64,000 nt of DNA from an uncultured Alphaproteobacteria bacterium (GTDB lineage Bacteria; Pseudomonadota; Alphaproteobacteria; HIMB59; GCA-002718135), in NCBI GenBank assembly GCA_902561355.1, contig CACEPG010000002.1, positions 8,607 to 72,606 on the forward strand. The letters run 5' to 3'. The position numbers were made by a program, and so were the translations under genes. A model generated the notes under the pieces. The model saw only the letters and a list, made by a program, of their open reading frames with translations, was not told the DNA's origin and did no database searches. This document shows, piece by piece, positions 41,559 through 63,407 of the stretch (its first letter is position 1; every line of letters begins with the position of its first letter).

Positions 41559-41574
41559 TTGAATAAGCATTCAA
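41559..41574 (+). promoter_or_regulatory. operator/promoter cassette TTGAAT-AAGC-ATTCAA (copy 3)
   Basis: A perfect 6-4-6 palindrome in the 55-bp Rieske/DAO divergent spacer. Its first T lies exactly 35 nt before the ATG at 41594. TATAAA follows after a 17-nt spacer. Confidence 0.55.
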
Positions 41575-41593
41575 TGAAATTTATAAATTACTG

Positions 41594-42928
41594 ATGAACA
41601 ATTTATATCATAAAGATATTTATAAGTTTGATGAACCCATAAAAAGTTATTGGGAAACAACAATTAACACAAGTAATAAATATAAAACTTTTGAAAAAAA
41701 TACTAAAACTAATATCTTAGTAATAGGCGCAGGTTATACTGGTATTAGCTGTGCCTTATCTTTAGCTAAAAAATATAATGAAGATGTAGTTTTATTGGAA
41801 GCAGGACATATAGGATGGGGTTCTTCTGCTAGAAATGCCGGTTTTTGTTGTATTCCACCAGCAAAGATGTCTGTTAAAAAAATGATTAATAAACATGGAA
41901 AACAAGAAACAAAAAAATTTTTTAAAAATACTGTTGAGGGCTCAAACTTTACTAAAAACTTAATTGATGAATATAAAATTAATTGTGATTTAACTGGTGA
42001 TTGTAATTATGAAGTTGCACCTCATCCAAGTTATTTTGATTCAATTAAAGAAGAAGCTAGTTTATACAAAAATGAATTTGGAATAGAAACAGAGGTCTTT
42101 GCTAGAGAAGAGTTTAATGAAATAGGTCATATGGGCAATGAACAGTATGGTGCGTTTTCATATAAACCTGGTTTTGCTATTAACCCGTTAAAATTTTTAT
42201 TAGGATTAGCTAAAGAAGCTAAAATTTCTGGGGTAAAAATATTTCAAAAAAGTAAAGTAAGCAAAATAGAAAAAAAATCTGGAAAATTTAATATAATATC
42301 AAACGGACACATTATCACAGCAAATAAAATTGTAATGGCTACAAATGGCTTTTATCAAGATGATCTTTTTCCTAAATTAAATAATAGAATATTACCAGTT
42401 ATATCAAATATTATAATTACGAGACCACTTACAGAAGATGAATTAAAATCACATAATTATGTTACTAATAACCCAGTACTTAATATTAGAAATTTACTTT
42501 TTTATTACAGGTTATTAAAAGATAATCGTTTTTTATTTGGTGCTAGAGGAGATGTAATTGGTAGTGAAAAATCTTCAATAGATAAATCTAAAAAAATGGA
42601 GCAACAAATGAAAAAAGTTTTTCCTAATTGGAGTCATGTTAATATTGATTTTCACTGGAGGGGATTAGTTGCGATGACAGCTAAATTAACACCATCTATA
42701 GGAAAACTTGAAGATGATGAAATTTATTACAGTTTTGGTTATCAAGCTAATGGAGTTAATACAGCCCCATGGTCTGGCAATGAGTTATCAAAATTAATAA
42801 TTTCAAACAGTAAAGTTTTAAATATATCAAAATTTTATCAAGGTTTACCAAAAAAGTTTCCTTTTCCTAAATTAAGATTATTTTATTTAAGATTATATTT
42901 AATGTATTGCTCAATTATAGATAGATAA
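41594..42928 (+). CDS. FAD-dependent oxidoreductase, DAO family
   Basis: Has ILVIGAGYTGISCALSLAK...VVLLEA and is 444 aa. It is the first gene of a tight DAO-aguA-aguB unit. Confidence 0.7.
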   Translation: MNNLYHKDIYKFDEPIKSYWETTINTSNKYKTFEKNTKTNILVIGAGYTGISCALSLAKKYNEDVVLLEAGHIGWGSSARNAGFCCIPPAKMSVKKMINKHGKQETKKFFKNTVEGSNFTKNLIDEYKINCDLTGDCNYEVAPHPSYFDSIKEEASLYKNEFGIETEVFAREEFNEIGHMGNEQYGAFSYKPGFAINPLKFLLGLAKEAKISGVKIFQKSKVSKIEKKSGKFNIISNGHIITANKIVMATNGFYQDDLFPKLNNRILPVISNIIITRPLTEDELKSHNYVTNNPVLNIRNLLFYYRLLKDNRFLFGARGDVIGSEKSSIDKSKKMEQQMKKVFPNWSHVNIDFHWRGLVAMTAKLTPSIGKLEDDEIYYSFGYQANGVNTAPWSGNELSKLIISNSKVLNISKFYQGLPKKFPFPKLRLFYLRLYLMYCSIIDR

Positions 42929-42933
42929 ACAAA

Positions 42934-43980
42934 ATGAGCACGCCTAGAATAAATAATTATCACATGCCTGCTGAATGGTATACTCATGAATGTTGCTGGA
43001 TGCAATGGCCATATGACAATCCAAATCATAATAGTTATGGTGATATACCATCTTGGTCCCATTTTGATTTTGAAAAAGGAAGATTAGCATGGGCTAATGT
43101 TGCAAAAGCAATTTGTGAATTTGAAAAAGTAAAAATGATTGTGCATCCTGATCATTTAATAAGCGCAAAAAATATACTTGATTCAAAGGTAGAAATAATT
43201 GCACATCAAATTGATGATTGTTGGTCAAGAGACAGTGGAGCAATTTTTTTGTTAAATAATGAAAATAAACTTGGAGGGATTGATTGGGAATTTAACGGAT
43301 GGGGCAAATTTAAACCTTATGACTCAGATAATAAAATAGCTAAATTTATGATTGAAAATTCATCAGCAAAATATTTCAAAAATAATATGGTACTTGAGGG
43401 AGGATCTATTCATGTTGATGGGAATGGAACTTTAATAACAACAGAACAATGTTTACTTAATAAAAATAGAAATCCTAAGCTTACAAAAGAAAAAATTGAA
43501 GATAATCTAAAAGAATATTTTAATATAAGTAAAATTATTTGGCTTAAAAATGGAACTGATGAAGGAACAGATGGTCATGTAGACAATATTGCATGCTTTG
43601 CTAACCCGGAAACTATTTTAGCTTTAGGTTGTAGTGACAAACAAGATCCTTTTTATGAAAAAATAAATGAAAATTTAGAAATTTTAAAAACATCGACTAA
43701 TAGCAAAGGTAAAAGATTAAAAATTATTGAAATTGAAATGTCTAAAAAAAGACTTATACCTAATGATGAAGAGCCAAGTTCTTATATTAATTTTTATATT
43801 GCTAACCAGGGTATAGTTATGCCAAGATTTGATGATGAAAAAGCTGACGTAAATGCTCAAACTATTATACAATCTACCTTTCCTGATAGAAAAATTATTG
43901 CTATTGATGGTAAAGATATTTCTCTTGGAGGAGGAAATGTACATTGTATAACACAACAACAACCTCTAAGTGTGAAATAG
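42934..43980 (+). CDS. aguA: agmatine deiminase
   Basis: The N-terminus is MPAEWYTHECCWMQWP and the C-terminal catalytic-Cys context is GGGNVHCITQQQP. Length is 348 aa. Confidence 0.85.
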   Translation: MSTPRINNYHMPAEWYTHECCWMQWPYDNPNHNSYGDIPSWSHFDFEKGRLAWANVAKAICEFEKVKMIVHPDHLISAKNILDSKVEIIAHQIDDCWSRDSGAIFLLNNENKLGGIDWEFNGWGKFKPYDSDNKIAKFMIENSSAKYFKNNMVLEGGSIHVDGNGTLITTEQCLLNKNRNPKLTKEKIEDNLKEYFNISKIIWLKNGTDEGTDGHVDNIACFANPETILALGCSDKQDPFYEKINENLEILKTSTNSKGKRLKIIEIEMSKKRLIPNDEEPSSYINFYIANQGIVMPRFDDEKADVNAQTIIQSTFPDRKIIAIDGKDISLGGGNVHCITQQQPLSVK

Positions 43981-43996
43981 AAAAGAAAGAATAGAT

Positions 43997-44866
43997 ATGA
44001 AAGTTAAAGTTGCAGCAACCCAAATGACATGCAGTTGGACTATTGATGAAAATATTAATAAAGCTAAAGATTTAATTAATAAGAGTGCTGCAGAAGGTGC
44101 TAATATAATCCTTCTACAAGAACTATTTCAAACTCCATATTTTTGTATTCAATATGATGAGGAAATTTTTAAATTAGCTGCAACATTTGAAAACAATAAA
44201 GTACTTGGAATGATGAGTGATTTGGCTAAAAAACTTAATGTTGTTTTGCCAATTAGTTTTTTTGAGAGAGATAATAATGCATATTTTAATTCAATTGCTG
44301 TTATTGATGCTGATGGAGCAATATTAGGAAAATATCGAAAATCTCATATCCCTGATGGTCCTGGATATTTAGAAAAATACTATTTTAATCCGGGTAATAC
44401 CGGCTTTAAAGTTTGGGAAACAAAATTTGGGAAAATAGGTATTGGTATATGTTGGGACCAGTGGTTTCCTGAAGCTGCAAGAATTATGGCTTTAAAAGGA
44501 GCAGAAATATTATTTTACCCAACTGCAATAGGGGACGAATTAATGAGTGAGTATGATAGTTCTGGAGCTTGGCAAAGAGTCATGCAAGGTCATGCAGCTG
44601 CAAATATAATTCCTGTTGTTGCTTCAAATAGAGTTGGTTCAGAATCAGTTAAAGGGCAAACAAATGGTTTTTATGGTAGATCTTTTATTTGTGACAGATC
44701 TGGTAAAATATTAGAAGAGGCATCAAAGGATAAAGAAGAAATAATTGTTGCAGAAATTAATACTGAAGAAGATCATTTATTTAGAAGAAATTGGGGACTT
44801 TTTAGAGATCGAAGAACTGATTTGTATGAAGAAATTTTAACGCTAGATGGAAAAATTAAAGATTAA
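43997..44866 (+). CDS. aguB: N-carbamoylputrescine amidase (CN-hydrolase family)
   Basis: The Glu-Lys-Cys triad contexts are ILLQELF, YRKSHIP and GIGICWDQWFPE. It is 289 aa and lies directly after aguA. Confidence 0.85.
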   Translation: MKVKVAATQMTCSWTIDENINKAKDLINKSAAEGANIILLQELFQTPYFCIQYDEEIFKLAATFENNKVLGMMSDLAKKLNVVLPISFFERDNNAYFNSIAVIDADGAILGKYRKSHIPDGPGYLEKYYFNPGNTGFKVWETKFGKIGIGICWDQWFPEAARIMALKGAEILFYPTAIGDELMSEYDSSGAWQRVMQGHAAANIIPVVASNRVGSESVKGQTNGFYGRSFICDRSGKILEEASKDKEEIIVAEINTEEDHLFRRNWGLFRDRRTDLYEEILTLDGKIKD

Positions 44867-46241
44867 GATACCACTTATATTCAATATCAGAAATTTCAGA
44901 ACGAAAAGATTCGATTTCTTTTCTTTTTAAATCAGCATACATTGTCACATATTCTTTTGAATAATAATCAATACAAAATTTTGAGTCTTCAAATAATTGA
45001 ATAGCTTTTTCAATAGATTTGGGCATTTCAGGATCAGGGTCAGTACAAGCATTATCAATTCGAAAATTTGTAGGAGATATTTTGTTAATAAGACCATAAT
45101 GAATTCCAGATAAAATAGCAGAAAGAACTAAATAAGAATTAGCTTCAGCTCCTGCTACCCTATGCTCAATCCTTTTAGATTTTTCATCGCTTCTTGGAAT
45201 TCTAAAAGCAACTGATCTATTATTAGGACCCCACGAATTGTTTACAGGAACAAATTGATCAGGCTCAAAACGCCTATAAGAATTTACATTAGAAGCAAAT
45301 ATTAAAAAATTATCATATAACGTTTGTTGTAAGCCACCTATTGCATAATGTAATTGTTCACTACCCTCTTCTTTAGCTCCAGAAAAAATATTATGATTTT
45401 TCTCATTAAACAAACTTATATGAACATGCATGCCGCTACCAGTTTGCTCAATAAATGGCTTTGAAATGAAGCTTGCTTCATAATCATGCTTAATTGCAGT
45501 TTCTTTTATAACTCTTCTTAGTAACGCTGAATCATCTGCAGCTTTAAGAATATCATTGGTATGATTTAAATTTATTTCAAATTGTCCAGGAGCAAATTCA
45601 GATGAAGCAGTTGATGCAGGAATATTTTGTATTTTACAAAATTTATTAACATCTTCTAAAAAATCATAGAATTCATCTAATTCTCGCATTCCATAAACTT
45701 GAGTTCCTTCACTTTGTTTATTAGTTTCGTTTGATATTGCTGGTTCTGGTTTTTCAGAAATATTTTTTCTTTTTTTAAAAAGATAAAATTCTAATTCAAA
45801 AGCAACTTTAAATTGTAAATTTAAATCTTCAATTCTATCTAAAACTCTAGCTAGTACATTTCTTGGATCTATTATAGAGCTGTAACGTGAGTCATCTTGA
45901 ATTGTAATTAAAACTTGCCCCAAAGAATCTTTATGCCATGGCATTTTTTTTAAAGTGCCAGCCACAGGAAAATAAGTTGCATCTGGATCTCCATCAGTAA
46001 AACCTCTCCCTGCGGCATCAGGACAATAACCAGTTACATCTAGTAAAAATGTTGAATAACAAAATTGAATTCCTGACTTAAATAGTTTTTCAGCGTCGTT
46101 AATTGGCAATCTTTTACCTCTAATAACACCTGATAAGTCACTTAAAATAGCATCTATATATTTAATTTCAGGATTTTTTTCTTTAAAAGAATTAAATTCA
46201 TCAGCTGTAGCAATTAAAACTTTGCTATTTTTAAAAGTCAT
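44856..46241 (-). CDS. glutamine-synthetase-like glutamate--amine ligase (second paralogue)
   Basis: Has SSEFAPGQFEINL, GSGMHVHISL, NSYRRF and RIEHRVAGAEANSY. Length is 461 aa. Confidence 0.75.
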   Translation of the reverse strand: MTFKNSKVLIATADEFNSFKEKNPEIKYIDAILSDLSGVIRGKRLPINDAEKLFKSGIQFCYSTFLLDVTGYCPDAAGRGFTDGDPDATYFPVAGTLKKMPWHKDSLGQVLITIQDDSRYSSIIDPRNVLARVLDRIEDLNLQFKVAFELEFYLFKKRKNISEKPEPAISNETNKQSEGTQVYGMRELDEFYDFLEDVNKFCKIQNIPASTASSEFAPGQFEINLNHTNDILKAADDSALLRRVIKETAIKHDYEASFISKPFIEQTGSGMHVHISLFNEKNHNIFSGAKEEGSEQLHYAIGGLQQTLYDNFLIFASNVNSYRRFEPDQFVPVNNSWGPNNRSVAFRIPRSDEKSKRIEHRVAGAEANSYLVLSAILSGIHYGLINKISPTNFRIDNACTDPDPEMPKSIEKAIQLFEDSKFCIDYYSKEYVTMYADLKRKEIESFRSEISDIEYKWYLNL

Positions 46242-46264
46242 ATAAATTTATATGAAAAAAATAA

Positions 46265-46280
46265 TTGAATGTCTATTTAA
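46265..46280 (+). promoter_or_regulatory. degenerate copy of the TTGAAT-N4-ATTCAA cassette (TTGAAT-GTCT-ATTTAA, copy 4)
   Basis: It has one mismatch to the palindrome and lies in the 58-bp GS-like/amidase divergent spacer. Its first T is again exactly 35 nt before the ATG at 46300. The -10-like element is weak. Confidence 0.3.
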
Positions 46281-46299
46281 TTAAATTAAAGCAATATCT

Positions 46300-47775
46300 A
46301 TGGATCTACATTATATATCAGCTGTTGAAGCAATTAAAAAATTTAAAGATAAGTCATTATCTCCTGTAGAACTAGTAAATTCTGTAATTGAAAGATCGCA
46401 AAAGATTAATCCTAAAATAAATGCTCATAACTTTACTTTTTATGAAAAAGCAATTGAATATGCAAAAAAATCAGAGCAAAAATATTTTACAAACTCCAAA
46501 ACACTCCCTCTAGAAGGTATACCTGTTGCTATCAAAGATGAAGAGGATATCGAAGGTCAGCCAAATACTAATGGTTCTTTGATATTAAAAGATCGCATAG
46601 CAAAAAAAACTATGGTTGATGTTGAAAGAATTATTAATTCTGGAGCAGTTATTCATTGCAGAACAACTACGCCTGAATTTTCCACTACCTCATTCACTCA
46701 TTCGAAATTGTGGGGCGTTACAAGAAATCCATGGAATTTGGAATATACACCTGGAGGTTCATCAGGAGGTTCAGGTGCATCTCTAGCTGCTGGATGTTCA
46801 ACTCTCGCAACTGGTTCTGATATTGGAGGTTCAATAAGAATACCTGCTTCTGCCTGTGGTCTAGTTGGATTTAAACCTCCTCATGGTCGAAATCCTCAGG
46901 AAGCTCCTTTTAATCATGATCAATATTGTGTAGTTGGTCCAATGGCAAGAACAGTAAAAGATTGTGCTCTAATGCAAAATGTAATGTCAGGACCACATCC
47001 TAAAGATATTACTAGTTTAAAACCCAAATTAAATATCCCTAATAAATTTGATAATATTAAAAATTGGAAAATAGCTTATTCAATGAATCTTGGTTTTTTT
47101 GAAATTGATAAAGAGGTAGAAAAAAATACACTCGATATAATTAATAAATTAAAAGAATTAGGTGCAAAAGTTGAAGAAGTTAAAATAAACTGGAACAAAA
47201 AAGAACTTGAGGATACTTGTTATAATTATTATGCCCATCTTTTTGCTAATTTTATTGCAGAATTAATACCTGAGCATGAAGAGGAGCTGACAGATTATGC
47301 AAGAGATGTTGGCTTGACTGCTAGAATTATTAACAAAGCATTAGTTGAAAGAAAAAAAATTAATCATCCTAGTATGGGTGTTGATTTAGGCATGACATTA
47401 TATGAATGCAATAAAATAGCTGGTAAAATGTATGAAGAATTTGGACCTATAATACACAAATACGATGCATTTATTTGTCCTACATTATCAATACCTGCCG
47501 TTAAGGCAGATATTAATCTGTTTAAAGATAAAATAGTAATTAATGGAAAAGAAATAAATTCACCCGATCTTGGATGGACTTTGTGTTATCCTTTTAATAT
47601 ACTCTGTCGATTACCAGTATTATCAATCCCTTCAGGAATAGCTAGTAATGGCGTGCCTACTGGGGTACAAATAGTTGGAAAGCCTTATGATGATATACCC
47701 GTTTTTCAAGCAGGCTATCAATTAGAACAGATAGAACCATGGTTTCAAAATAATAAATTAAAACCTAATTTATAA
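46300..47775 (+). CDS. amidase-signature (AS) family amidase
   Basis: Has GGSSGGSGASLAAG, the catalytic Lys context PVAIKDEEDI, and GSDIGGSIRIPA. Length is 491 aa. Confidence 0.85.
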   Translation: MDLHYISAVEAIKKFKDKSLSPVELVNSVIERSQKINPKINAHNFTFYEKAIEYAKKSEQKYFTNSKTLPLEGIPVAIKDEEDIEGQPNTNGSLILKDRIAKKTMVDVERIINSGAVIHCRTTTPEFSTTSFTHSKLWGVTRNPWNLEYTPGGSSGGSGASLAAGCSTLATGSDIGGSIRIPASACGLVGFKPPHGRNPQEAPFNHDQYCVVGPMARTVKDCALMQNVMSGPHPKDITSLKPKLNIPNKFDNIKNWKIAYSMNLGFFEIDKEVEKNTLDIINKLKELGAKVEEVKINWNKKELEDTCYNYYAHLFANFIAELIPEHEEELTDYARDVGLTARIINKALVERKKINHPSMGVDLGMTLYECNKIAGKMYEEFGPIIHKYDAFICPTLSIPAVKADINLFKDKIVINGKEINSPDLGWTLCYPFNILCRLPVLSIPSGIASNGVPTGVQIVGKPYDDIPVFQAGYQLEQIEPWFQNNKLKPNL

Positions 47776-47823
47776 AAATTGCTATTTTTTATTGAAATTT
47801 TCTCAAATTATTGTTCATGTAGC

Positions 47824-47843
47824 AATTAATTAATTAATTAATT
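47824..47843. repeat. (AATT)x5 tetranucleotide tract
   Basis: aattaattaattaattaatt lies immediately upstream of a G6 Shine-Dalgarno-like run (47850-47855) and the ATG at 47860. Confidence 0.9.
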
Positions 47844-47859
47844 TTTATTGGGGGGTAAA

Positions 47860-48948: not shown

Positions 48949-48970
48949 TCAAAGTTTAGTTCAATATCTA

Positions 48971-49007
48971 AATAGCCTGTTCTCTTTTTGAGGGCGGGCT
49001 ATTTTTT
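48971..49007 (+). terminator. rho-independent terminator of the SBP gene
   Basis: The plus-strand RNA forms a 14-bp stem (48971-48984 with 48990-49003, three G-U pairs) and a 5-nt loop. The stem's last pair (A48971-T49003) begins the T-run 49003-49007. The structure contains the stop codon of the convergent ATPase gene. Confidence 0.75.
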
Positions 49008-50081: not shown

Positions 50082-50087
50082 AGTTTT

Positions 50088-50899: not shown

Positions 50900-51784
50900 T
50901 TAAGTTAACCTTTGTGTAAGTCTTTTTGTTACATTCGACACAATTATTGTTATGAGTATAACAGTTGTTAACATAATTGTAGCTGAAGCTGCGCCAAGAG
51001 GAATATTATTTATTTTTCCAAAGTAAGCCTGGATCATATTCGAAAGCATACGACCATCAGTTCCTCCAAGTAAGGCTGGAGTGACATAATCACCTACTGT
51101 AGGAATGAATATGATTAATATCGCTCCTATTACACCAGGTAAAGATAATGGAAATGTAATTTTCCAAAAAACTTCAAATCGAGAGAGTCCAAGATCTCTT
51201 CCTGCTTCAATAAACGAAAAGTCAATTTTTTCTAACGAAACATATAAAGGTAGTAATGCAAATGCTGCCCATGCGTGAGTAAGAGTAATAACTACTGCGG
51301 TTTCTGAATACATAAGAAATGTAAGAGGTTCGCTGAGAATTCCAGCGTTGATCAATGAAGAGTTTATAACTCCTTTTGTTCCAAGAATAATCTTCCAAGA
51401 AAATACTCTTAATAAATAAGATGTCCAAAAAGGCAAAGTGAGCAAAACAAGCCACAACATTTTGTTTTTTTTAACATAAAAAGCGATGTAATAACAAACT
51501 GGGTATGCTGTGATCAGTGTAATTAAAGTTACAAGAAATGATATTTTAATAGACTTTATGAGAAGTGTGACCAGCAAATTTTTTTGAAAGAAATCAATAT
51601 ATCTTTGAAAAGTAAAAGTATAGTCTATCTCCATCATGTTAACTTGAGTAAACATACTAAAGCTCAACATTAGTGCCATTGGTACGACCATAGCCAAAAT
51701 AATTAAAATTAAAGCTGGTGATAATAAAGTATAAGCTTTAACATTATCATTTTTAGCATAAATTTTTCTCCAAAAACCTATCAT
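50900..51784 (-). CDS. ABC-transporter permease, PotB-like
   Basis: Six transmembrane helices with the EAA loop IEAGRDLGLSRFEVFWKITFPLSLPG. Confidence 0.85.
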   Translation of the reverse strand: MIGFWRKIYAKNDNVKAYTLLSPALILIILAMVVPMALMLSFSMFTQVNMMEIDYTFTFQRYIDFFQKNLLVTLLIKSIKISFLVTLITLITAYPVCYYIAFYVKKNKMLWLVLLTLPFWTSYLLRVFSWKIILGTKGVINSSLINAGILSEPLTFLMYSETAVVITLTHAWAAFALLPLYVSLEKIDFSFIEAGRDLGLSRFEVFWKITFPLSLPGVIGAILIIFIPTVGDYVTPALLGGTDGRMLSNMIQAYFGKINNIPLGAASATIMLTTVILITIIVSNVTKRLTQRLT

Positions 51785-52985: not shown

Positions 52986-53624
52986 TTAAAACATTCCCTT
53001 AAATTGTTTGGGGAAATTAGATTTAATAAACTCAAAACATATTTTCTTTGCTTGTATCCTGTTAAAAGTATCAGGATCTTCAAGTTGATCCAACCATAAT
53101 CCCATAATCAAAGCTTGAAATCCTCTAGAAATATTTTTTTTAGATAATTTCACTTTTTCTTTTTTTATAAGTTCATCAAATATATTTTCAGTTAAAGATT
53201 GGTAATACATATCTCGTTCTTTACAAATTTGATGATAAGCAGGTTTATATTTAATTTCACTAAAAAAAGTAAACCACACTGAAATTTTTTCTCTAGTGCA
53301 AATTTTTTTACTAAAATCATTTTCTACAATTCCAATGATTTTTTTTCTTGGATCATTACCTTTTTTTGCAATACTTCTTTGAAATGAATCTAGATACTCG
53401 TTAGAAATATATTTTAATGTTTCTATTAATAAAAGTTCCTTACTTTTAAAATGAAAATTTACTATACCTTGGGAAAGACCTGCTCCCTGTGATACATCTT
53501 GCATAGTTAATTCATTTATTCCTTTTTTTGATAAATTTTTAATTGTTGAAGAAATTAATTTTAAATTACTATTTTTCTTATTTTCTGATCTAAGATTTCT
53601 TTGTTTCATATTTAATAAATTCAT
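52986..53624 (-). CDS. TetR-family transcriptional regulator (BetI-like ligand domain)
   Basis: The N-terminal HTH is ELTMQDVSQGAGLSQGIVNFHFKSKELLLIETL. The C-terminal strings ISVWFTFFSE...KP.Y and FQALIMGLWLDQL resemble E. coli BetI as I recall it (KAWLAFWASS...QP.LY, ALIDGLWLRAAL). Confidence 0.8.
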   Translation of the reverse strand: MNLLNMKQRNLRSENKKNSNLKLISSTIKNLSKKGINELTMQDVSQGAGLSQGIVNFHFKSKELLLIETLKYISNEYLDSFQRSIAKKGNDPRKKIIGIVENDFSKKICTREKISVWFTFFSEIKYKPAYHQICKERDMYYQSLTENIFDELIKKEKVKLSKKNISRGFQALIMGLWLDQLEDPDTFNRIQAKKICFEFIKSNFPKQFKGMF

Positions 53625-53665
53625 TATAGTTTTTCATAAAAAGCTTGATTTTACAAGAAATTTGG

Positions 53666-53681
53666 TTGAATGCTCATTCAA
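53666..53681 (+). promoter_or_regulatory. operator/promoter cassette TTGAAT-GCTC-ATTCAA (copy 1)
   Basis: A perfect 6-4-6 palindrome in the 76-bp TetR/flavoprotein-operon divergent spacer. Its first T lies exactly 35 nt before the ATG at 53701. Confidence 0.6.
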
Positions 53682-53700
53682 AGAAATATAAGAAAATACA

Positions 53701-55329
53701 ATGAACAAAACTAAATATGATGTTGCTATAATTGGTGGTGGTCATAATGGATTAACCACAGCTTGTTATTTGGCTAAGGCGGGTCTCAAAGTCATTGTTG
53801 TGGAACGACATGAATATGTTGGAGGCGCAGCTGTTAGCAGAGAATTGCATCCAGGTTGGACTTATTCTAATTGCTCATATGTTTGCAGCTTATTAAGACC
53901 TGAGATATTTAGAGATTTAGAATTATCAAAACATGGGCTTCAAATTATACCTTATGAAGGTAGTGCGAGTATGCTTAATGATGGTAGATTTTATGCACAT
54001 TATCAAGATCATGATTTAACTTACAGATCTATCGCTCAATTTTCAAAAAAAGATGCTGAAGCCTATGATAGGTTTGGCAAAGATGTAATGAGGCAATGCA
54101 AAATTATCAAACCTCTTTTAAAAATGACTCCTCCTGACCCTACTTCTTTTAAACCAAAAGATATTATGGGTCTTTTTGAATTTGCAAAATACTTTGCAGC
54201 TAAAGATGAGCTTGGTGGTTTAGGTGAAAAAGAAATTTACGACACCATAAGATTTTGGACAATGAGCGTAAGAGATTATTTAGAAGAATATTTTGAATCA
54301 GATATAGTAAAAGTACATTTAGCTGGATCTGCAATAATAGGTACAGCGCTTGGGCCTTATTCCCCTGGTTCAGCTTATGTATTATTACATCATTACATGG
54401 GAGAAGTAGATGGGACTGTTGGAGCATGGGGGTATTCCAGAGGAGGAATGGGCTCGATTACAAAAGCTATGGCGTCATCTTTAAAATCAAACAATGGTGA
54501 AATAAAAGCAGGTTCACCAGTAAGTCAGATTCTTATCAAAAATAACAAAAGTTATGGACTTGTTCTTGAGAATGGTGATGAAATTTATGCAGATAAAATA
54601 GTTTCTAACCTTGATGTAAAAAGAACTTTTTTAAAAGTTGTAGAAGAAAAAGAATTACCTAGTGATTTTTATAAAGCTGTTAAAAATTTTAAAATTAGAG
54701 GCTCATCAGGAAAATTAAATATTGCTCTTGATGATCTTCCTATTTGGAAGAGTATTCCAGTTGGTGATCCTGCTGGCACTGGTGATCTGCATATAACGCA
54801 AAACATAGAAGAGATGGAAGGAGCTTACGATGATTGGAAGGATGGTAAGTGGTCACAATTTCCTTATGTTGATATGTGCATTCCAAGCATCAATGATCCA
54901 ACTATGGCACCACAAGGAAAACATTATATGTCTGTATTTATTCAATATGTACCCTACAATTTAGCTAATGGAGGTTGGACTGAGGAGAAACGTCTTGAAT
55001 TTGGTAAACATGTAATGAATAGAATTGGCAATTACTCCACAAACTTTAATGATATTATCAATCATGCAGAAATTAGAACTCCTAAAGAAATAGAAGCTGA
55101 GGTTGGTTTAACTGAAGGCAATATATTCCAAGGCGAACTAACCATGGACCAATTAATGTTTAATCGTCCAGTACCTGGTTATGCTCAATATAAGACACCG
55201 ATCAAAAATCTATATATGTGTGGATCAAGCACGCATCCTGGCGGAGGTGTTATGGGTGCACCTGGAGTTAATGCAGCAAGAGAAATATTAAAAGATTTAA
55301 AGATGAAAATATCAACACATTACATATGA
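53701..55329 (+). CDS. NAD(P)/FAD-dependent oxidoreductase, CrtI/amine-oxidase superfamily, PYROXD2-like
   Basis: Has YDVAIIGGGHNGLTTACYLAKAGLKVIVVERHEYVGGAA and CSYVCSLLRPEIFRDLELSKHGL, the latter close to the human PYROXD2 string as I recall it. The C-terminal string is LYMCGSSTHPGGGVMGAPG. Length is 542 aa. Confidence 0.8.
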   Translation: MNKTKYDVAIIGGGHNGLTTACYLAKAGLKVIVVERHEYVGGAAVSRELHPGWTYSNCSYVCSLLRPEIFRDLELSKHGLQIIPYEGSASMLNDGRFYAHYQDHDLTYRSIAQFSKKDAEAYDRFGKDVMRQCKIIKPLLKMTPPDPTSFKPKDIMGLFEFAKYFAAKDELGGLGEKEIYDTIRFWTMSVRDYLEEYFESDIVKVHLAGSAIIGTALGPYSPGSAYVLLHHYMGEVDGTVGAWGYSRGGMGSITKAMASSLKSNNGEIKAGSPVSQILIKNNKSYGLVLENGDEIYADKIVSNLDVKRTFLKVVEEKELPSDFYKAVKNFKIRGSSGKLNIALDDLPIWKSIPVGDPAGTGDLHITQNIEEMEGAYDDWKDGKWSQFPYVDMCIPSINDPTMAPQGKHYMSVFIQYVPYNLANGGWTEEKRLEFGKHVMNRIGNYSTNFNDIINHAEIRTPKEIEAEVGLTEGNIFQGELTMDQLMFNRPVPGYAQYKTPIKNLYMCGSSTHPGGGVMGAPGVNAAREILKDLKMKISTHYI

Positions 55330-57994: not shown

Positions 57995-58000
57995 AGAATA

Positions 58001-59152: not shown

Positions 59153-59155
59153 TCT

Positions 59156-61192
59156 TTGAATTTAAAAAAACTTTTTAGACCAAAAAGTCTTGCTTTAGTT
59201 GGAGGGTATTGGGCAGACTTTGTTTATGATGGCAATAAAACTATTGGCTATCAAGGTAAAGTTTGGCATATAAATCCTTCACGTAAAAGCTCCAAAGCAA
59301 AAAAATATTATAAAAATATTAAAGATCTTCCAGAAGTACCTGATTGCGTTTATCTAGCTGTCTCAAGGGATCAAACAGTAAAATTAATAAAAGATATTGC
59401 TGACATAGGTGTTGGAGGTACTGTTTGTTTAGCTTCGAGATTTTCTGAACTTAATTCTAAAGAAGGTACAAATAAAACTAATGAGCTAATTAGGAATGCT
59501 GGCAAAATGCCTTTCCTTGGACCAAATTGTTATGGATTTATAAATTACTTGGATAGAATTTCAGTATGGTCTGATCAAGTAGCAGGCAAACCAACTAAAA
59601 AAGGTGTTGCTATTATATGTCAAAGTGGAACTATTGGTAATACGATTAGTTTTAATAATAGATCTTTACCAATTGGGTATATAATTTCTCTCGGCAATCA
59701 ATCACAAATAACGATAGAAGATGCCATTAATTATGCTTTAGATGATAAGAGAGTTACTGCTATTGGAATTTATGCTGAAAGTTTTACCAATACAGAAAAG
59801 TTAATAAAAGTATTTAAAAAATCCAGATTAAAAAAAATTCCTATAGCATTAGTTAAAGTAGGCAGATCTAAAACTGCGTCTAAAACAATATTAACACATA
59901 CTGGATCACTAAGCGGGAAAGAAGATATATATGATTCTTTATTTCAAAGAATGGGTGTGGCTAGATGTAATACATTAGGAGAGTTATGTGAAATTTTAAA
60001 ATTACTTCACACTCATGGTGCTTTAAATAACGATAAAATTTCAATTATGGGTCCATCAGGTGGTGATATGGCTATGATAGGAGACGTTGCAGAAACTTTA
60101 TCATTAAATTTTGGTAAAATACCTACAAAAATAAAAAATGAATTAAAAAAAGTTAATCACCCAAGTGTTATAATTTCAAATCCATTCGATCTACAAACAT
60201 ACAACTGGAATGACCCTAAGCAATTAGCAAAAACATTTAAATTAATATTTAAAACTAATTTTGGTTTAAATGCACTTATGCTAGATTTTCCAAATATAGA
60301 AGATTGTGACACTGCAGAATGGGATGCTATAGTAGATCAATTTATAAAATCATCAAAAATAAAAAAAAATGGAGCGATTATTTCTTCACTTTCAGATACC
60401 CTTCCTAAATATCTAAGAGAAAAATGTCTTAAGTCAGGAGTTGTTCCACTTCAGGGTATGTCAGAGAGTTTACTAGCCATAAGTAACTCAATAAAAATTT
60501 CAAAAGCTTGGAGTAATTTTAGTGAAATTAAAATTTCAAAAAAATTACAAAATCATAAAAAGAAAATTAAAACATTTTCAGAATATGAATCAAAATTAAT
60601 CCTAAAAAAATTTAAAATATCTACACCAAAATCTTTAATTACAAATAAAAAAAATATTTTGCGAGATTATAAAAAAATTGGATTTCCTTTAGTGGCAAAA
60701 ATACATTCAACTAAATTTTTTCATAAAACTGAAATTGGAGGTGTTATTATTAACATTAATAATGAAAAAGAATTAAAGCAAAAGACAAATAAATTTAGAG
60801 GCAATATCTTAATTGAAAAAATGATATCAAATTCGATTTTTGAAATGATAATAGGCATAAAAAATGATAGCCAATTTGGACCTACAATAATATTGGGGGC
60901 TGGTGGTATTTATACCGAATTATTTAAAGATACGACTACCTTACTTTTACCTTTAAATAAAAAAATAATTTTGGATGAAATAAAAAAACTTAAATTTAGC
61001 AAAATATTATTTGGTTTTAGAGGAAGTAATATTGCTGATATTGATGCATTAGTAAATACAATATTAAAAGTAGCTGTTTTTGCTGAAAAAAATTCAGATA
61101 AAATTTCAGAAGTTGATATAAATCCACTAATAGTTTGTAAAAAAGGTAAAGGTGTATTTGCTGTAGATGCTCTAATACATTATTTAATATAG
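59156..61192 (+). CDS. NDP-forming acyl-CoA synthetase (CoA-binding, succinyl-CoA-ligase-like and ATP-grasp domains fused)
   Basis: The N-terminus LFRPKSLALVGG marks the CoA-binding fold. It also has ICQSGTIG and HTGSLSG (phosphohistidine-loop type) and a C-terminal ATP-grasp string (PLVAKIHS...HKTEIGGV). It is 678 aa and uses a TTG start. Confidence 0.8.
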   Translation: MNLKKLFRPKSLALVGGYWADFVYDGNKTIGYQGKVWHINPSRKSSKAKKYYKNIKDLPEVPDCVYLAVSRDQTVKLIKDIADIGVGGTVCLASRFSELNSKEGTNKTNELIRNAGKMPFLGPNCYGFINYLDRISVWSDQVAGKPTKKGVAIICQSGTIGNTISFNNRSLPIGYIISLGNQSQITIEDAINYALDDKRVTAIGIYAESFTNTEKLIKVFKKSRLKKIPIALVKVGRSKTASKTILTHTGSLSGKEDIYDSLFQRMGVARCNTLGELCEILKLLHTHGALNNDKISIMGPSGGDMAMIGDVAETLSLNFGKIPTKIKNELKKVNHPSVIISNPFDLQTYNWNDPKQLAKTFKLIFKTNFGLNALMLDFPNIEDCDTAEWDAIVDQFIKSSKIKKNGAIISSLSDTLPKYLREKCLKSGVVPLQGMSESLLAISNSIKISKAWSNFSEIKISKKLQNHKKKIKTFSEYESKLILKKFKISTPKSLITNKKNILRDYKKIGFPLVAKIHSTKFFHKTEIGGVIININNEKELKQKTNKFRGNILIEKMISNSIFEMIIGIKNDSQFGPTIILGAGGIYTELFKDTTTLLLPLNKKIILDEIKKLKFSKILFGFRGSNIADIDALVNTILKVAVFAEKNSDKISEVDINPLIVCKKGKGVFAVDALIHYLI

Positions 61193-61200
61193 TTTAATTT

Positions 61201-61977
61201 ATGGACAAACCAGTTAAAACAAAAATTGAAGGATCAATATTAGAGATAACTATTGATCGACCAAAAGCTAATGCGATAGATGCTAAGACAAGTATAATGT
61301 TGGGAAATATATTTGCTGACTTTAGAGATAATCCAAAACTTAAAGTAGCTATCATTACAGGTGGCGGAGAAAAATTTTTTTCTGCCGGATGGGATCTAAA
61401 GGCTGTTAATGAAGGAGAGGCTGCTGATGCAGATTATGGTGTTGGTGGATTTGGAGGACTGCAAGAGTTACCTAATATGAACAAACCTATTATAGCAGCT
61501 GTTAATGGTATTGCGTGCGGTGGTGGTTTTGAAATTATGATTTCAGCAGATATTATAATTGCCGCAGAACACGCAACATTTGCGTTACCTGAAATCAATG
61601 TAGGAGTTGTAGCTGACGCAGCTACAATAAAATTAAGAAGACGTATACCCTATCACGTAGCTGTTGAGTTTTTAATGACTGGAAGATGGATGGATGTCAA
61701 AGAAGCAAAACACTGGGGTTTAGTAAATGAAATTGTTAAAACAAATGATTTATTAAAAAGAGCCTGGGAAATAGCTGATAAAATTTCAAAAGGACCTAAT
61801 TTAATTTATTCTTCAATTAAAGAAGTTTTAAGAGAAACAGAAAACGAAAAGGAAATACCATCATTTAAAATTTTGCGATCATTAGAATCAGTAAAAAAAG
61901 TTTATGGAAGTGAAGATCTAAAAGAAGGAGCTTCTTCTTTTGTTAAAAAAACAGATCCGAATTGGAAAGATAAATAG
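61201..61977 (+). CDS. crotonase-family hydratase, closely CaiD-like (carnitinyl-CoA dehydratase / crotonobetainyl-CoA hydratase type)
   Basis: [21 protein letters not shown] and [39 protein letters not shown] are almost colinear with E. coli CaiD as I recall it ([60 protein letters not shown]). An alignment is needed to confirm this. Confidence 0.8.
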   Translation: [258 protein letters not shown]

Positions 61978-61995
61978 AATATAAAAATTATTTCA

Positions 61996-62017
61996 TTGAA
62001 TGCTCATTCAGTGAATG
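61996..62017 (+). promoter_or_regulatory. operator/promoter cassette TTGAAT-GCTC-ATTCAG overlapping a second palindrome CATTCA-G-TGAATG (copy 2)
   Basis: The 15-nt core TTGAATGCTCATTCA is identical to copy 1. It lies in the 53-bp spacer between the CaiD-like gene and the aminotransferase. Its first T is exactly 35 nt before the ATG at 62031, and TACAGT follows after a 17-nt spacer. Confidence 0.6.
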
Positions 62018-62030
62018 ATACAGTTAAATC

Positions 62031-63407
62031 ATGAAAAATGATTATGTTAGTGAAATCCATAAGAAAGATAAACTTGTTCTCCATCCATATGAAGATATGG
62101 AAAGTAGAGGAACTTATGACCGTAAACTTATTGTAAAATCAGATAATATTTATCTTTATGATGAAAATGGAAAAGAATACATTGATGGACCTGGAGGTAT
62201 GTGGTGTAATAACATAGGGCACGGAAATAAAGAGATAGGTGAGGCTGTTAAAAATCAACTAGAAAAAATGGAATATTGCAGCCCTTTTTCAGAATCTAGT
62301 GAAATTTCTGCTGAATTAGCTTCTGTTCTATCTGAATTGTCTCCTGGAGATCTTAATACAGTTTTTTTTACTACTGATGGCTCTACAGCCAATGATACTG
62401 CTCTAAGATTTATTATGTTTTATAATAACATATTAGGCAGACCTAATAAAAAACACTTTATCACTAGGCATAAAGCTTATCATGGAAGCACTTATCTTAC
62501 AGGATCAATAACAGGCAAAGATAGGGAAAAAAATAATTTTGATTTTGAAAAAAATTTCATTCATCATTTGAGTTCACCTCTTGCTTATAGAAGAAAAAAA
62601 AACCAAACAATTCAAGAATTTTGTGATGAACTTGTAAAAGAATTTGAAGATAAAATAATAGAATTAGGATCAGAAAATGTTGCAGCTTTTATTGCTGAAC
62701 CAGTCATGGCTTCAGGTGGTTGTATAGTCCCTCCTGAAGGATATTTAAAAAGAATTTGGCAAATATGCAAAAAATATGATGTTTTATATATTTCTGATGA
62801 AGTAGTTACAGGGTTTGGAAGAATGGGTCATTTTTTTTCTTCTGAAGAAGTTTTTGAAATAGTTCCTGATATTATAACTTGTGCTAAGGGAATTACATCA
62901 GGATATATGCCTCTTGGAGCTGTCTTATTTTCTGACAAATTACTAAATGATATTAAAAAAGAATCTGCACTTTTTTTTCACGGCTATACTTATTCAGGAC
63001 ATCCTGCATGTTGTGCTGCAGCATTAAAAAACATAGAAATTATTGAACGAGATAAAATTCTTGAACATGTTCAAGAAATTGAACCCTACTTTCATAATAA
63101 ATTACAAAAATTGTATGAATTACCAATTGTTGGAGATGTAAGAGGTAAAGGATTAATGGCAGGCATAGAATGTGTAATAAATAAAGATAGTAAGGAAGCA
63201 CTTATTTTAGATAAAGCTATAGGATCAAGAATTGATGAGGAATCAATTAAATTAGGCTTAATTATTAGACCGCTCTATCATATTTGTGTTTTATCTCCTG
63301 CTTTAATAATTACAAAATCACAAATTGATGATCTTGTTGAAAAATTATTTACTGCTATTCAAAATTCTCTTCAACAACTTAAAACAGAAGGTTTATGGAA
63401 AGATTAA
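62031..63407 (+). CDS. class-III (omega-amino acid / diamine : pyruvate or 2-oxoglutarate) aminotransferase
   Basis: Has GGMWCNNIGHG, ISDEVVTGFGRMG and the PLP-Lys context ITCAKGITSGY. Length is 458 aa. Confidence 0.85.
   Translation: MKNDYVSEIHKKDKLVLHPYEDMESRGTYDRKLIVKSDNIYLYDENGKEYIDGPGGMWCNNIGHGNKEIGEAVKNQLEKMEYCSPFSESSEISAELASVLSELSPGDLNTVFFTTDGSTANDTALRFIMFYNNILGRPNKKHFITRHKAYHGSTYLTGSITGKDREKNNFDFEKNFIHHLSSPLAYRRKKNQTIQEFCDELVKEFEDKIIELGSENVAAFIAEPVMASGGCIVPPEGYLKRIWQICKKYDVLYISDEVVTGFGRMGHFFSSEEVFEIVPDIITCAKGITSGYMPLGAVLFSDKLLNDIKKESALFFHGYTYSGHPACCAAALKNIEIIERDKILEHVQEIEPYFHNKLQKLYELPIVGDVRGKGLMAGIECVINKDSKEALILDKAIGSRIDEESIKLGLIIRPLYHICVLSPALIITKSQIDDLVEKLFTAIQNSLQQLKTEGLWKD

What the first reader, a model, noticed from the sequence alone, without database searches (positions are those of the whole stretch)
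41559..62033. Invariant 35-nt offset between the cassette and the start codon in all four copies implies that TTGAAT doubles as a -35 element and the mRNAs are leaderless
The distance from the first T of TTGAAT to the A of the ATG is 35 in every case:
- 41559 to 41594
- 46265 to 46300
- 53666 to 53701
- 61996 to 62031

With a 17-nt spacer, the hexamers that follow are TATAAA (41582-41587), TACAGT (62019-62024), TAAGAA (53689-53694; a better TATAAG lies 2 nt upstream) and a poor AAAGCA (46288-46293). Each ends 6 nt before the ATG. A sigma70-type start would therefore fall on the A of the start codon.

Operator, -35 element and translation start thus form one fixed module. Repressor binding would occlude the -35 directly. 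The distances to the divergent minus-strand starts are not constant (36, 39 and 57 nt), so the module is oriented.
Basis: partly seen in the sequence, partly recalled or inferred. Interest (0 to 1): 0.65.

Follow-up and report, generated by a model that had tools for sequence, protein, structure and literature searches.

The report
Repressor site overlapping promoters at start codons
Four binding sites for a TetR-type repressor in a streamlined marine alphaproteobacterium sit on promoters so close to the start codons that the mRNAs probably have almost no leader; this is a tidy new example of a layout already shown by experiment in other bacteria.

Summary
TTGAAT starts at 41559, 46265, 53666 and 61996, and each lies exactly 35 nt before the first ATG of a long ORF. 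Chance does not explain this: 4 of 6 motif-like sites fall in the 5.4% of the window that is intergenic.

Orthologous loci support half of the interpretation well. A -10-like hexamer stays 15-17 nt after TTGAAT in two bacterial orders. The few bases between that hexamer and the ATG vary freely in sequence and length. This fits TTGAAT acting as a -35 element.

Three parts of the interpretation do not hold:
- The 35-nt offset is not invariant. Orthologues show 34-40 nt, and 51-56 nt in most Pelagibacteraceae.
- The module is not oriented. At site 1 the other half-site serves a mirror-image promoter for the divergent gene.
- Lack of a Shine-Dalgarno sequence is not informative, because the genome barely uses them.

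No transcription start was mapped, so "leaderless" remains a prediction.

The layout has direct precedents: AcuR in Rhodobacter (5'-RACE shows a leaderless transcript) and BetI boxes over -35 elements in Ruegeria. I rate it a new member of a known kind.

The parts
41559..41574 (.). Site 1 operator, TTGAATAAGCATTCAA, a perfect palindrome. The left half is the proposed -35 for the plus-strand gene. The reverse complement of the right half is the proposed -35 for the minus-strand gene.
   Evidence: Invariant in orthologues whose DAO protein is only 79-86% identical.
41582..41587 (+). Proposed -10 TATAAA for the DAO-type oxidoreductase gene. It lies 17 nt after TTGAAT and 6 nt before the ATG at 41594.
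   Evidence: TATAAA or TATAAG is kept in all 5 distinct orthologues, while the following 5-6 nt vary (TTACTG, TAACCT, TATATA, TAAGTA, TAGAT).
41546..41551 (-). Proposed -10 TATATA for the divergent Rieske oxygenase gene. It lies 17 nt after the minus-strand TTGAAT and 7 nt before the ATG at 41538.
   Evidence: Kept in all orthologues, with 7 or 10 nt to the ATG.
41594..42928 (+). FAD-dependent oxidoreductase (DAO family, named gamma-glutamylputrescine oxidoreductase in MAG records). First gene of an operon with agmatine deiminase (42934-43980) and a CN-hydrolase (43997-44866).
40306..41538 (-). Rieske-type oxygenase alpha subunit (GbcA-like), divergent from site 1.
46265..46280 (.). Site 2 operator, TTGAATGTCTATTTAA. 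The right half-site is degenerate (ATTTAA, ATGTAT or ATTTAT in orthologues).
46287..46292 (+). Weak -10 candidate TAAAGC for the amidase gene. Spacer 16, and 7 nt before the ATG at 46300.
   Evidence: Orthologues have TAAAGT, TAAAAG or TAAGTG. The offset of 35 is kept in all 5 distinct orthologues.
46247..46275 (-). Promoter for the glutamine-synthetase-like gene. The -35 TAGACA (46275..46270) lies in the operator centre. A 17-nt spacer, the -10 TATAAA (46252..46247) and 5 nt lead to the ATG at 46241.
   Evidence: Kept in 9 orthologues. L015 has TTGAAA-17-TATAAA-6-ATG with no operator.
44856..46241 (-). Glutamine-synthetase-family gene (gamma-glutamyl-amine synthetase type).
46300..47775 (+). 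Amidase gene.
53666..53681 (.). Site 3 operator, TTGAATGCTCATTCAA, a perfect palindrome between the TetR gene and the CrtI-like oxidoreductase gene.
   Evidence: The same palindrome lies next to the TetR homologue in about 50 of 63 loci.
53687..53692 (+). Proposed -10 TATAAG. Spacer 15 from TTGAAT, and 8 nt before the ATG at 53701.
   Evidence: TATAAG, TATAAA or TATATT sits at spacer 15 in all 11 distinct orthologues of the same lineage.
53648..53653 (-). Proposed -10 TAAAAT of the TetR promoter. Its -35 would fall in the operator centre (TGAGCA or TGACCA).
   Evidence: Conserved in most orthologues of the same lineage (changed in L009/L010/L013 and L014).
52986..53624 (-). TetR-family regulator with a BetI-type C-terminal domain. 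It is the presumed binder of the palindrome. It heads an operon with an acyl-CoA dehydrogenase and ABC-transporter genes.
53701..55329 (+). CrtI-like FAD oxidoreductase. First gene of a co-directional run up to the enoyl-CoA hydratase gene at 61201-61977.
61996..62017 (.). Site 4 operator, TTGAATGCTCATTCAG, followed directly by a third half-site TGAATG (62012-62017).
   Evidence: The third half-site is kept as TGAATG or CGAATG in orthologues.
62019..62024 (+). Proposed -10 TACAGT. Spacer 17, and 6 nt before the ATG at 62031.
   Evidence: Variants are TACAGT, TACTAT, TACTGT, TAGAGT, TAAAAC and TATAAT, always at spacer 17. Positions 1, 2 and 6 are kept (except TAAAAC) while 3-5 vary.
62031..63407 (+). 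Class-III aminotransferase gene. It also lies 53 nt downstream of the preceding co-directional gene, so read-through transcripts are possible too.

Best explanation
The 16-bp palindrome TTGAAT-N4-ATTCAA is the operator of the BetI-like TetR repressor encoded at 52986-53624. In this lineage the operator is built into sigma-70-type promoters. One half-site serves as the -35 hexamer, and at site 1 both half-sites do so, one on each strand. A -10 hexamer follows 15-17 nt later. The start codon follows only 5-8 nt after that.

Bound repressor would therefore block RNA polymerase from the -35 element. When the unknown ligand releases the repressor, transcription would start on or within about 3 nt of the A of the ATG. 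That would give leaderless or near-leaderless mRNAs for amine-catabolic operons.

The figure of 35 nt is simply 6 + 17 + 6 + 6, or 6 + 16 + 6 + 7, or 6 + 15 + 6 + 8. It is the normal footprint of a promoter that abuts a start codon, not a separately selected constant.

What is shown: the motif positions, the conservation pattern, and the co-occurrence of regulator and operator. What is inferred: repressor binding, promoter use, the transcription start, and leaderless translation.
For: 1. The motif sites are intergenic and equally spaced from the start codons, beyond chance.

2. The TetR homologue (31-99% identity) sits next to a palindrome with 0-2 mismatches in about 50 of 63 loci. These span MarineAlpha5-type genomes, Pelagibacteraceae and GC-rich Alpha- and Gammaproteobacteria.

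3. A -10-like hexamer lies 15-17 nt after TTGAAY at 8 of 9 independent site/lineage combinations, against 21.5% for random anchors.

4. At site 4 the hexamer variants keep T1, A2 and T6 while positions 3-5 change.

5. In Pelagibacteraceae the hexamer TATCAT shifts between spacer 16 and 17.

6. Conservation is complete through the -10 and then collapses in the 5-9 nt before the ATG. That stretch also changes in length. A Shine-Dalgarno leader would show the opposite pattern.

7. Pelagibacteraceae aminotransferase orthologues read TTGAAY-N4-RTTCAA-N7-TATAAT-N5-ATG.

8. The 55-nt spacer at site 1 is fully accounted for as 7 + 6 + 7 + 16 + 7 + 6 + 6. That is two mirror-image promoters around one operator.

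9. In L015 the GS-like gene has no operator but still has TTGAAA-17-TATAAA-6-ATG.

10. Precedents exist. In Rhodobacter sphaeroides, AcuR (TetR family) has an operator overlapping a promoter contained in the 36 bp before the ATG, and 5'-RACE places the start exactly at the AUG (PMC3017554). In Ruegeria pomeroyi, BetI boxes cover the predicted -35 elements, including both -35s of a divergent pair (PMC12442346).
Against: - No transcription start, repressor binding or expression data exist for this organism.
- The proposed -10 hexamers at sites 1 and 3 (TATAAA, TATAAG) lack the usually critical final T. Site 3 needs a short 15-nt spacer. Site 2 has only TAAAGC.
- In DNA that is 79% A+T, -10-like hexamers are common. 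The consensus promoter scan found fewer hits than in shuffled sequence (85 against 108).
- A perfect TATAAT at 41548-41553 lies just upstream of the site 1 operator. It could drive a transcript with a 34-nt leader.
- In GC-rich relatives the same operator lies 49-125 nt upstream of the orthologous gene, with ordinary leaders. In two of them a TATCAT precedes the operator.
- Flanking AAAT/ATTT symmetry suggests that the repressor footprint may extend over part of the region I read as spacer.
- Site 4 can also be transcribed by read-through from the upstream gene.
Confidence: 0.6

Rival explanations
1. The promoter lies upstream of the operator, with its -10 just 5' of TTGAAT and its -35 inside the neighbouring gene. 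The repressor then acts at or just after the transcription start. The mRNAs would carry leaders of about 35 nt, unstructured, A/U-rich and without a Shine-Dalgarno sequence. The similar offsets would reflect tight packing of operator and start codon.
For: - TCAACA-17-TATAAT at 41525-41553 ends 5 nt before the site 1 operator.
- In gammaproteobacterial relatives L060 and L069 a TATCAT sits 3 nt upstream of the operator, and the gene starts 49 nt or more downstream.
- The genome translates nearly all genes without Shine-Dalgarno sequences (7 of 55 genes have an SD-like 4-mer, against 11% of random 17-mers). A leader without one would therefore work.
Against: - No TAnnnT lies within 12 nt upstream of the operator at site 3.
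- At site 4 the upstream TATAAA is absent from orthologues L003 and L007.
- The upstream -35 at site 1 is not kept in L204, L209 or L212.
- The downstream hexamer is kept everywhere at polymerase-like spacing.
Confidence: 0.2
2. The conserved box after the palindrome is part of an extended repressor footprint of 28-30 bp, as for pairs of TetR dimers. It would not be a -10 element. The genes would be transcribed from elsewhere, for example by read-through or from promoters inside upstream genes.
For: - Flanks show extra symmetry: ATTTnn-TTGAAT...ATTCAA-nnAAAT at sites 1-3, and a third half-site TGAATG at site 4.
- The BetI1 footprint in Ruegeria is 29 bp.
- Site 4 follows a co-directional gene by only 53 nt.
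Against: - The box moves by 1-2 nt relative to the palindrome: spacer 15, 16 or 17 between sites, and 16 or 17 between Pelagibacteraceae lineages.
- Its interior positions vary while T1, A2 and T6 are kept.
- Sites 1-3 are between divergent genes, so read-through cannot supply their transcripts.
Confidence: 0.12
3. The equal offsets are coincidence, or a by-product of very short intergenic spacers, with no functional link between the motif and the start codon.
For: - Intergenic spacers here are only 53-76 nt, which limits the possible offsets.
- The genome-wide profile of TAnnnT relative to start codons is flat.
Against: - Four of six motif-like sites fall in the 5.4% of the window that is intergenic, and all four offsets are identical.
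- The offset is kept within 34-40 nt in orthologues whose sequence between the -10 and the ATG has diverged.
- A control divergent pair without the motif (38893/38945) varies from 51 to 73 nt.
Confidence: 0.03

Closest known systems
AcuR and the acuR-acuI-dddL operon of Rhodobacter sphaeroides (PMC3017554)
   Same: - The regulator is a TetR-family repressor in an alphaproteobacterium.
- An inverted-repeat operator overlaps a sigma-70-type promoter (TTGATT ... TATTAT).
- The whole promoter and operator fit in the 36 bp before the ATG.
- The first gene has no Shine-Dalgarno sequence.
- 5'-RACE shows that the transcript starts exactly at the AUG.
- The authors saw the same layout in other taxa and in marine metagenome fragments.
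   Different: - The operator sequence differs (TAATAGAC-n6-GTCTATTA).
- The leaderless gene there is the regulator itself. Here the regulator gene seems to have a 17-32 nt leader, and the predicted leaderless genes are catabolic enzymes.
- There are several operator sites here (a small regulon).
- At site 1 the arrangement is bidirectional.
- Nothing here has been tested by experiment.
BetI1/BetI2 and betI boxes in Ruegeria pomeroyi, and BetI of E. coli (PMC12442346)
   Same: - The regulator has the BetI-type TetR C-terminal domain (Pfam TetR_C_6).
- The palindromic box contains TTGA...TCAA and lies over the predicted -35.
- One box overlaps the -35 elements of both promoters of a divergent pair.
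- The regulator is autoregulated from a divergent position.
   Different: - The box geometry differs: a 16-bp TTGAAT-N4-ATTCAA against the 14-bp ATTGACG|CGTCAAT.
- The protein scores below both BetI equivalog cut-offs (106.3 against 201.3, and 101.3 against 118).
- None of the annotated genes beside the four sites is a bet gene. The regulated genes look like amine or polyamine catabolism.
- The Ruegeria promoters were predicted, not mapped, and were not described as leaderless.
Leaderless mRNAs in bacteria (lambda cI, Tn1721 tetR; common in Actinobacteria; mapped in Caulobacter crescentus and Sinorhizobium meliloti)
   Same: - The -10 element ends about 6-7 nt before an AUG that serves as both +1 and start codon.
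- An AUG start is required. All starts here and in all orthologues are ATG.
- Sources: the discussion in PMC3017554, and the titles and abstracts of PMC4117421 and PMC3616915.
   Different: - Here the starts are only predicted.
- Some sites would give 1-3 nt leaders rather than none.
- No genome-wide -10 peak before start codons was seen in the DNA sampled. A weak excess of -35/-10 pairs 4-11 nt before start codons was seen (10 against 3.0).
TetR/tetO of Tn10 (own knowledge, not checked here)
   Same: Palindromic operators in a short divergent region control both the regulator gene and the structural gene by overlapping their promoters.
   Different: There are two tandem operators placed over the -10 and +1 regions rather than one operator supplying the -35 hexamers. 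The intergenic region is longer and the mRNAs have leaders.

Membership tests
TetR family of transcriptional repressors | N-terminal TetR-type helix-turn-helix domain | tested here: met
   PF00440 TetR_N scores 35.0 bits (cut-off 24) at residues 24-68 of the 52986-53624 product.
TetR family of transcriptional repressors | Binds a palindromic operator, usually next to its own gene | tested here: inconclusive
   A palindrome with 0-2 mismatches lies within 200 nt of the 5' end of the TetR homologue in about 50 of 63 loci across distant taxa. This is co-occurrence only. Binding cannot be tested with these tools.
BetI (choline-responsive repressor) equivalog | Score above the curated family cut-off | tested here: not met
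   TIGR03384 scores 106.3 against a cut-off of 201.3. NF001978 scores 101.3 against 118. The BetI-type C-terminal domain PF13977 is present (47.2 against 27).
BetI (choline-responsive repressor) equivalog | betI box ATTGACG|CGTCAAT-type operator and linkage to betA/betB/betT | tested here: not met
   The operator is TTGAAT-N4-ATTCAA. The betI box is as given in PMC12442346. Flanking genes are an acyl-CoA dehydrogenase, an ABC transporter and CrtI-like oxidoreductases.
Sigma-70-type promoter with the operator over the -35 element | A -35-like and a -10-like hexamer separated by 15-19 nt, conserved in orthologues | tested here: met
   TTGAAY plus a TA-initial hexamer at spacer 15-17 occurs at 8 of 9 site/lineage combinations, against a 21.5% background. 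Site 2 plus strand is weak (TAAAGC).
Sigma-70-type promoter with the operator over the -35 element | Transcription actually initiates 6-8 nt after the -10 hexamer | not testable with these tools
   No transcript 5'-end data are available. No paper mapping transcription starts in SAR11 or its relatives was found.
Leaderless mRNA | The 5' end of the primary transcript is at, or within a few nt of, the start codon | not testable with these tools
   The geometry predicts starts 0-3 nt before the four ATGs. The -10 ends 6, 7, 8 and 6 nt upstream.
Leaderless mRNA | AUG start codon and no Shine-Dalgarno sequence | tested here: met
   All four genes and all orthologues start with ATG, and none has an SD-like 4-mer. 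This is not diagnostic, because only 7 of 55 genes in the window have one, against 11% of random 17-mers.

The most novel reading that the evidence does not exclude
At site 1, one 16-bp palindrome supplies the -35 hexamers of two back-to-back leaderless promoters. The entire 55-nt spacer (7 + 6 + 7 + 16 + 7 + 6 + 6) would then be a complete bidirectional repressible switch with no untranslated RNA on either side.

More broadly, promoters that abut start codons may be a recurrent streamlining device in these marine alphaproteobacteria, which barely use Shine-Dalgarno sequences. Two hints point that way. The S4-like ribosomal protein gene at 28684(-) reads TTGACA-16-TATATA-11-ATG. Promoter-like pairs 4-11 nt before start codons are about three-fold in excess.
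Probability: 0.35. Interest if true: 0.55.

Novelty: new member of a known kind. Interest (0 to 1): 0.35.

Why it matters
SAR11-type and related streamlined marine bacteria are thought to have very few transcriptional regulators, as noted in the discussion of PMC12992908.

This finding defines a conserved repressor-operator pair shared by MarineAlpha5-type genomes, Pelagibacteraceae and other Proteobacteria. It also defines a small regulon of amine-catabolic operons, and it makes a concrete, testable prediction of where the transcripts start.

If confirmed, it would show how a complete regulated bidirectional promoter can be packed into about 55 nt. It would also give a first handle on promoter structure and leaderless translation in lineages that lack genetic tools.

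It does not change what is known about TetR repressors or about leaderless mRNAs.

Tried and rejected
1. Metagenome scan for TTGAATGNNCATTCAA. The 120 hits came from soils, guts and sediments and were mostly in coding DNA or unrelated operators. Only L186 was orthologous.

3. Consensus promoter scan. It found fewer hits than in shuffled sequence (85 against 108), so it cannot discriminate in DNA of about 28% G+C. It did flag the rival TATAAT upstream of site 1.

4. Position profile of TAnnnT relative to start codons in 107 non-redundant upstream regions. The profile is flat, so leaderless geometry is not the dominant architecture in these lineages. A stricter test on -35/-10 pairs gave only a weak excess (10 against 3.0).

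5. Absence of a Shine-Dalgarno sequence as evidence for leaderless mRNAs. I rejected this because the whole window lacks them.

6. Literature searches for transcription-start or leaderless data in SAR11 or Pelagibacter found nothing relevant. A sequence-word search for TTGAATG with TetR was swamped by unrelated papers. DmdR is a GntR-type regulator and is unrelated.

7. The idea that the four copies are duplicated cassettes. I rejected it because similarity beyond the operator is limited to a short (T/A)GAAAT flank.

8. My early assumption that the window is SAG AG-426-C22 (L001) was wrong. L001 differs upstream of the TetR gene and at site 4. L002 is closer.

Full report
**The observation**

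The four TTGAAT hexamers start at 41559, 46265, 53666 and 61996. The ATGs at 41594, 46300, 53701 and 62031 are the most upstream possible starts of ORFs of 444, 491, 542 and 458 aa.

Only 41559 and 53666 are perfect TTGAAT-N4-ATTCAA palindromes (2 found, 0.12 expected). The other two carry one mismatch each.

Of the six sites in the window with at most one mismatch, four are intergenic, although intergenic DNA makes up only 5.4% of the window. Together with the identical offsets, this rules out chance.

The start codons are well founded:
- The CrtI-like protein begins six residues before its Rossmann motif, and distant orthologues begin at the same place.
- Homologues of the DAO-type protein at 78-97% identity are all 443-445 aa.
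- Curated family profiles align from residue 2 of the amidase and residue 9 of the aminotransferase.

**What the genes are**

The window is about 28% G+C. Its closest relatives are single-cell and metagenome-assembled genomes labelled 'uncultured Alphaproteobacteria' or 'MarineAlpha5'. From memory, and not tested here, I believe this corresponds to the HIMB59 lineage.

The four sites precede these genes:
- a DAO-family oxidoreductase, followed by agmatine deiminase and a CN-hydrolase;
- an amidase;
- a CrtI-like FAD oxidoreductase, heading a run that includes a second such enzyme, a GcvT-like aminomethyltransferase, an acyl-CoA dehydrogenase, an ADP-forming CoA ligase and an enoyl-CoA hydratase;
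- a class-III aminotransferase.

The divergent genes are as follows:
- At site 1, a Rieske oxygenase.
- At site 2, a glutamine-synthetase-like enzyme.
- At site 3, a TetR regulator that heads an operon with an acyl-CoA dehydrogenase and a spermidine/putrescine-type ABC transporter.

The regulon therefore looks like amine or polyamine catabolism. That reading is an inference from domain content.

**The regulator**

The TetR protein has the BetI-type C-terminal domain, but it scores below both BetI equivalog cut-offs.

Homologues at 31-99% identity lie next to a palindrome with 0-2 mismatches in about 50 of 63 loci. These include Pelagibacteraceae and GC-rich Alpha- and Gammaproteobacteria. This is the usual comparative signature of an autoregulated TetR and its operator. 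Binding itself is not shown.

**Test of the -35 idea with orthologues**

I collected orthologous upstream regions from 80 genome loci around the CrtI-like gene. I added 12 loci around DAO homologues at 79-86% identity. tabulates them.

In every lineage a -10-like hexamer follows TTGAAY at a fixed, polymerase-like distance:
- Site 1: spacer 17 (TATAAA or TATAAG).
- Site 2: spacer 16 (TAAAGC or TAAAGT, weak).
- Site 3: spacer 15 in the window's lineage (TATAAG, TATAAA or TATATT).
- Site 3 in Pelagibacteraceae: spacer 16-17 (TATCAT, TATGAT, TAAAAT, TAATAT or TATTAT).
- Site 4: spacer 17 (TACAGT, TACTAT, TACTGT, TAGAGT, TAAAAC, and TATAAT in Pelagibacteraceae).

A TA-initial hexamer with at least 4 of 6 matches to TATAAT occurs at spacer 15-17 from only 21.5% of random anchors in comparable upstream DNA. 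Here it occurs in 8 of 9 site/lineage combinations.

Three further details argue for a true -10 rather than an extension of the operator:
- At site 4, positions 1, 2 and 6 are kept while positions 3-5 change.
- In Pelagibacteraceae the box shifts by one base relative to the palindrome.
- Conservation is complete up to the end of the box and collapses in the bases between it and the ATG.

**Test of 'invariant 35' and 'leaderless'**

The distance from the -10 to the ATG is short but not constant:
- 5-6 nt at site 1;
- 6-7 nt at site 2;
- 7, 8, 12 or 13 nt at site 3 in the window's lineage;
- 5, 6 or 9 nt at site 4.

Offsets from TTGAAT to the ATG are therefore 34, 35, 38, 39 and 40 nt in relatives. 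In most Pelagibacteraceae orthologues of the CrtI-like gene, 23-28 nt separate the box from the ATG, which predicts a leader of roughly 17-21 nt.

So 35 is the sum of ordinary promoter dimensions, not a selected constant. For the window itself the geometry predicts starts on the A of the ATG at sites 1 and 4, and within 1-3 nt of it at sites 2 and 3.

This is a prediction only. No transcript data exist, and I found no paper that maps transcription starts in these lineages.

The absence of Shine-Dalgarno sequences adds nothing. Only 7 of 55 genes in the window have an SD-like 4-mer, against 11% of random 17-mers.

**The module is not oriented**

At site 1 the minus strand reads TTGAAT-17-TATATA-7-ATG for the Rieske gene, and orthologues keep the box with 7 or 10 nt to the ATG. 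The 55-nt spacer is exactly 7 + 6 + 7 + 16 + 7 + 6 + 6. That is two mirror-image promoters sharing one palindrome.

At site 2 the convincing promoter faces the minus-strand glutamine-synthetase-like gene: TAGACA in the operator centre, 17 nt, TATAAA, then 5 nt to the ATG. This is kept in nine orthologues. One relative (L015) has lost the operator but keeps TTGAAA-17-TATAAA-6-ATG.

At site 3 the TetR gene has a conserved TAAAAT, with its -35 in the operator centre. Its start codon lies further away, giving a leader of about 17-32 nt.

**Rival readings**

The main rival places the promoter upstream of the operator, giving leaders of about 35 nt.
- Its best support is a perfect TATAAT at 41548-41553.
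- Further support comes from relatives in which a TATCAT precedes the operator and the gene starts far downstream.
- Against it, sites 3 and 4 have no conserved upstream -10, and the upstream -35 at site 1 is not conserved.

A second rival treats the downstream box as part of a longer repressor footprint. The flanking AAAT/ATTT symmetry and the third half-site at 62012-62017 give it some weight. The 1-2 nt shifts of the box argue against it.

**Is the geometry general in these genomes?**

A position profile of TAnnnT before start codons is flat in 107 non-redundant upstream regions. Stricter -35/-10 pairs show a small excess 4-11 nt before start codons: 10 observed against 3.0 in shuffles, among 95 regions without the operator. 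Examples include a ribosomal-protein-S4-like gene in the window. This is suggestive only.

**Comparison with what is known**

The layout is established elsewhere.

In Rhodobacter sphaeroides, the TetR-family repressor AcuR has an inverted-repeat operator overlapping a TTGATT...TATTAT promoter. The whole unit fits in the 36 bp before the ATG, and 5'-RACE places the transcript start exactly at the AUG. The authors noted the same arrangement in other taxa and in marine metagenomes (PMC3017554).

In Ruegeria pomeroyi, BetI boxes cover the predicted -35 elements, and one BetI2 box overlaps the -35 of both promoters of a divergent pair (PMC12442346).

The present case differs in four ways:
- the operator sequence and spacing are different;
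- the predicted leaderless genes are catabolic genes rather than the regulator gene;
- there are four sites;
- site 1 is mirror-symmetric.

**Verdict**

The -35 overlap is well supported by comparison, and near-leaderless starts are plausible but unmapped. The claims of invariance and of orientation are wrong.

It is a new member of a known kind. Its interest is moderate to low overall, and somewhat higher for people working on regulation in streamlined marine bacteria.

Noticed in passing
window 53595-53637 (minus strand): A conserved ATGAAAAA lies 10 nt after the TetR -10 (TAAAAT). In the window it opens only a 15-codon ORF, out of frame with the TetR gene. In L004, L007, L008 and L011 it is in frame and extends the TetR N-terminus. 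The TetR start therefore differs between close relatives (MNLLNMKQ..., MKQRN..., MKKYSFFEYKMNN...).
   Followed up: partly
window 62012-62017; flanks of 41559, 53666 and 61996: Site 4 has a third half-site (TGAATG) directly after the operator. It is kept as TGAATG or CGAATG in orthologues of the same lineage. Sites 1-3 show extra flanking symmetry (ATTTnn ... nnAAAT). The real footprint may be about 28 bp, or two dimers may bind.
   Followed up: partly
whole window: The genome barely uses Shine-Dalgarno sequences. An SD-like 4-mer occurs at -20..-4 for 7 of 55 genes, against 11% of random 17-mers. The clearest examples are 50900-51784(-) with TAAGGAGC and 47860(+) with TTGGGGGGTAAA.
   Followed up: yes
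window 28064-28684 (minus strand): A gene starting [10 protein letters not shown], which I take from memory to be ribosomal protein S4, has TTGACA-16-TATATA only 11 nt before its ATG. It could be another very short leader outside the regulon.
   Followed up: no
window 7887-7911 and 14950-14983: Two divergent gene pairs are separated by only 23 and 32 nt. Their promoters must lie inside the neighbouring coding sequences, or the first-ATG start calls are wrong.
   Followed up: no
L052, L055, L059, L060, L062, L069, L078 (upstream of the CrtI-like gene): GC-rich Alpha- and Gammaproteobacteria keep the same palindrome next to the TetR homologue, but 49-125 nt upstream of the CrtI-like gene. In L060 and L069 a TATCAT sits just before the operator. 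The operator is old, and its position relative to the promoter differs by lineage.
   Followed up: partly
L207 and L208, about 17640-17720 and 12775-12857: These relatives lack the amidase gene. The site 2 operator there faces the solute-binding-protein gene across about 60 nt that end in TTGGGGGTAAA. The same G-rich element precedes the binding-protein gene in the window (47845-47859).
   Followed up: no
window 59156 against 59507: The CoA-ligase ORF is complete only if it starts at the TTG at 59156, 3 nt after the preceding gene. The CoA-binding domain begins at residue 33. This is an internal non-ATG start, in contrast to the ATG at every operon-first gene of the regulon.
   Followed up: no
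window 48970-49004: This is the only strong terminator-like hairpin in the region scanned (15 pairs followed by a T run). It lies between the convergent binding-protein and ABC ATPase genes.
   Followed up: no
L001 against the window: L001 encodes a CrtI-like protein 100% identical to the window's. Its site 4 region matches the 38-nt-offset type of L007 rather than the window's 35-nt type. This suggests recombination within the island among close relatives.
   Followed up: no
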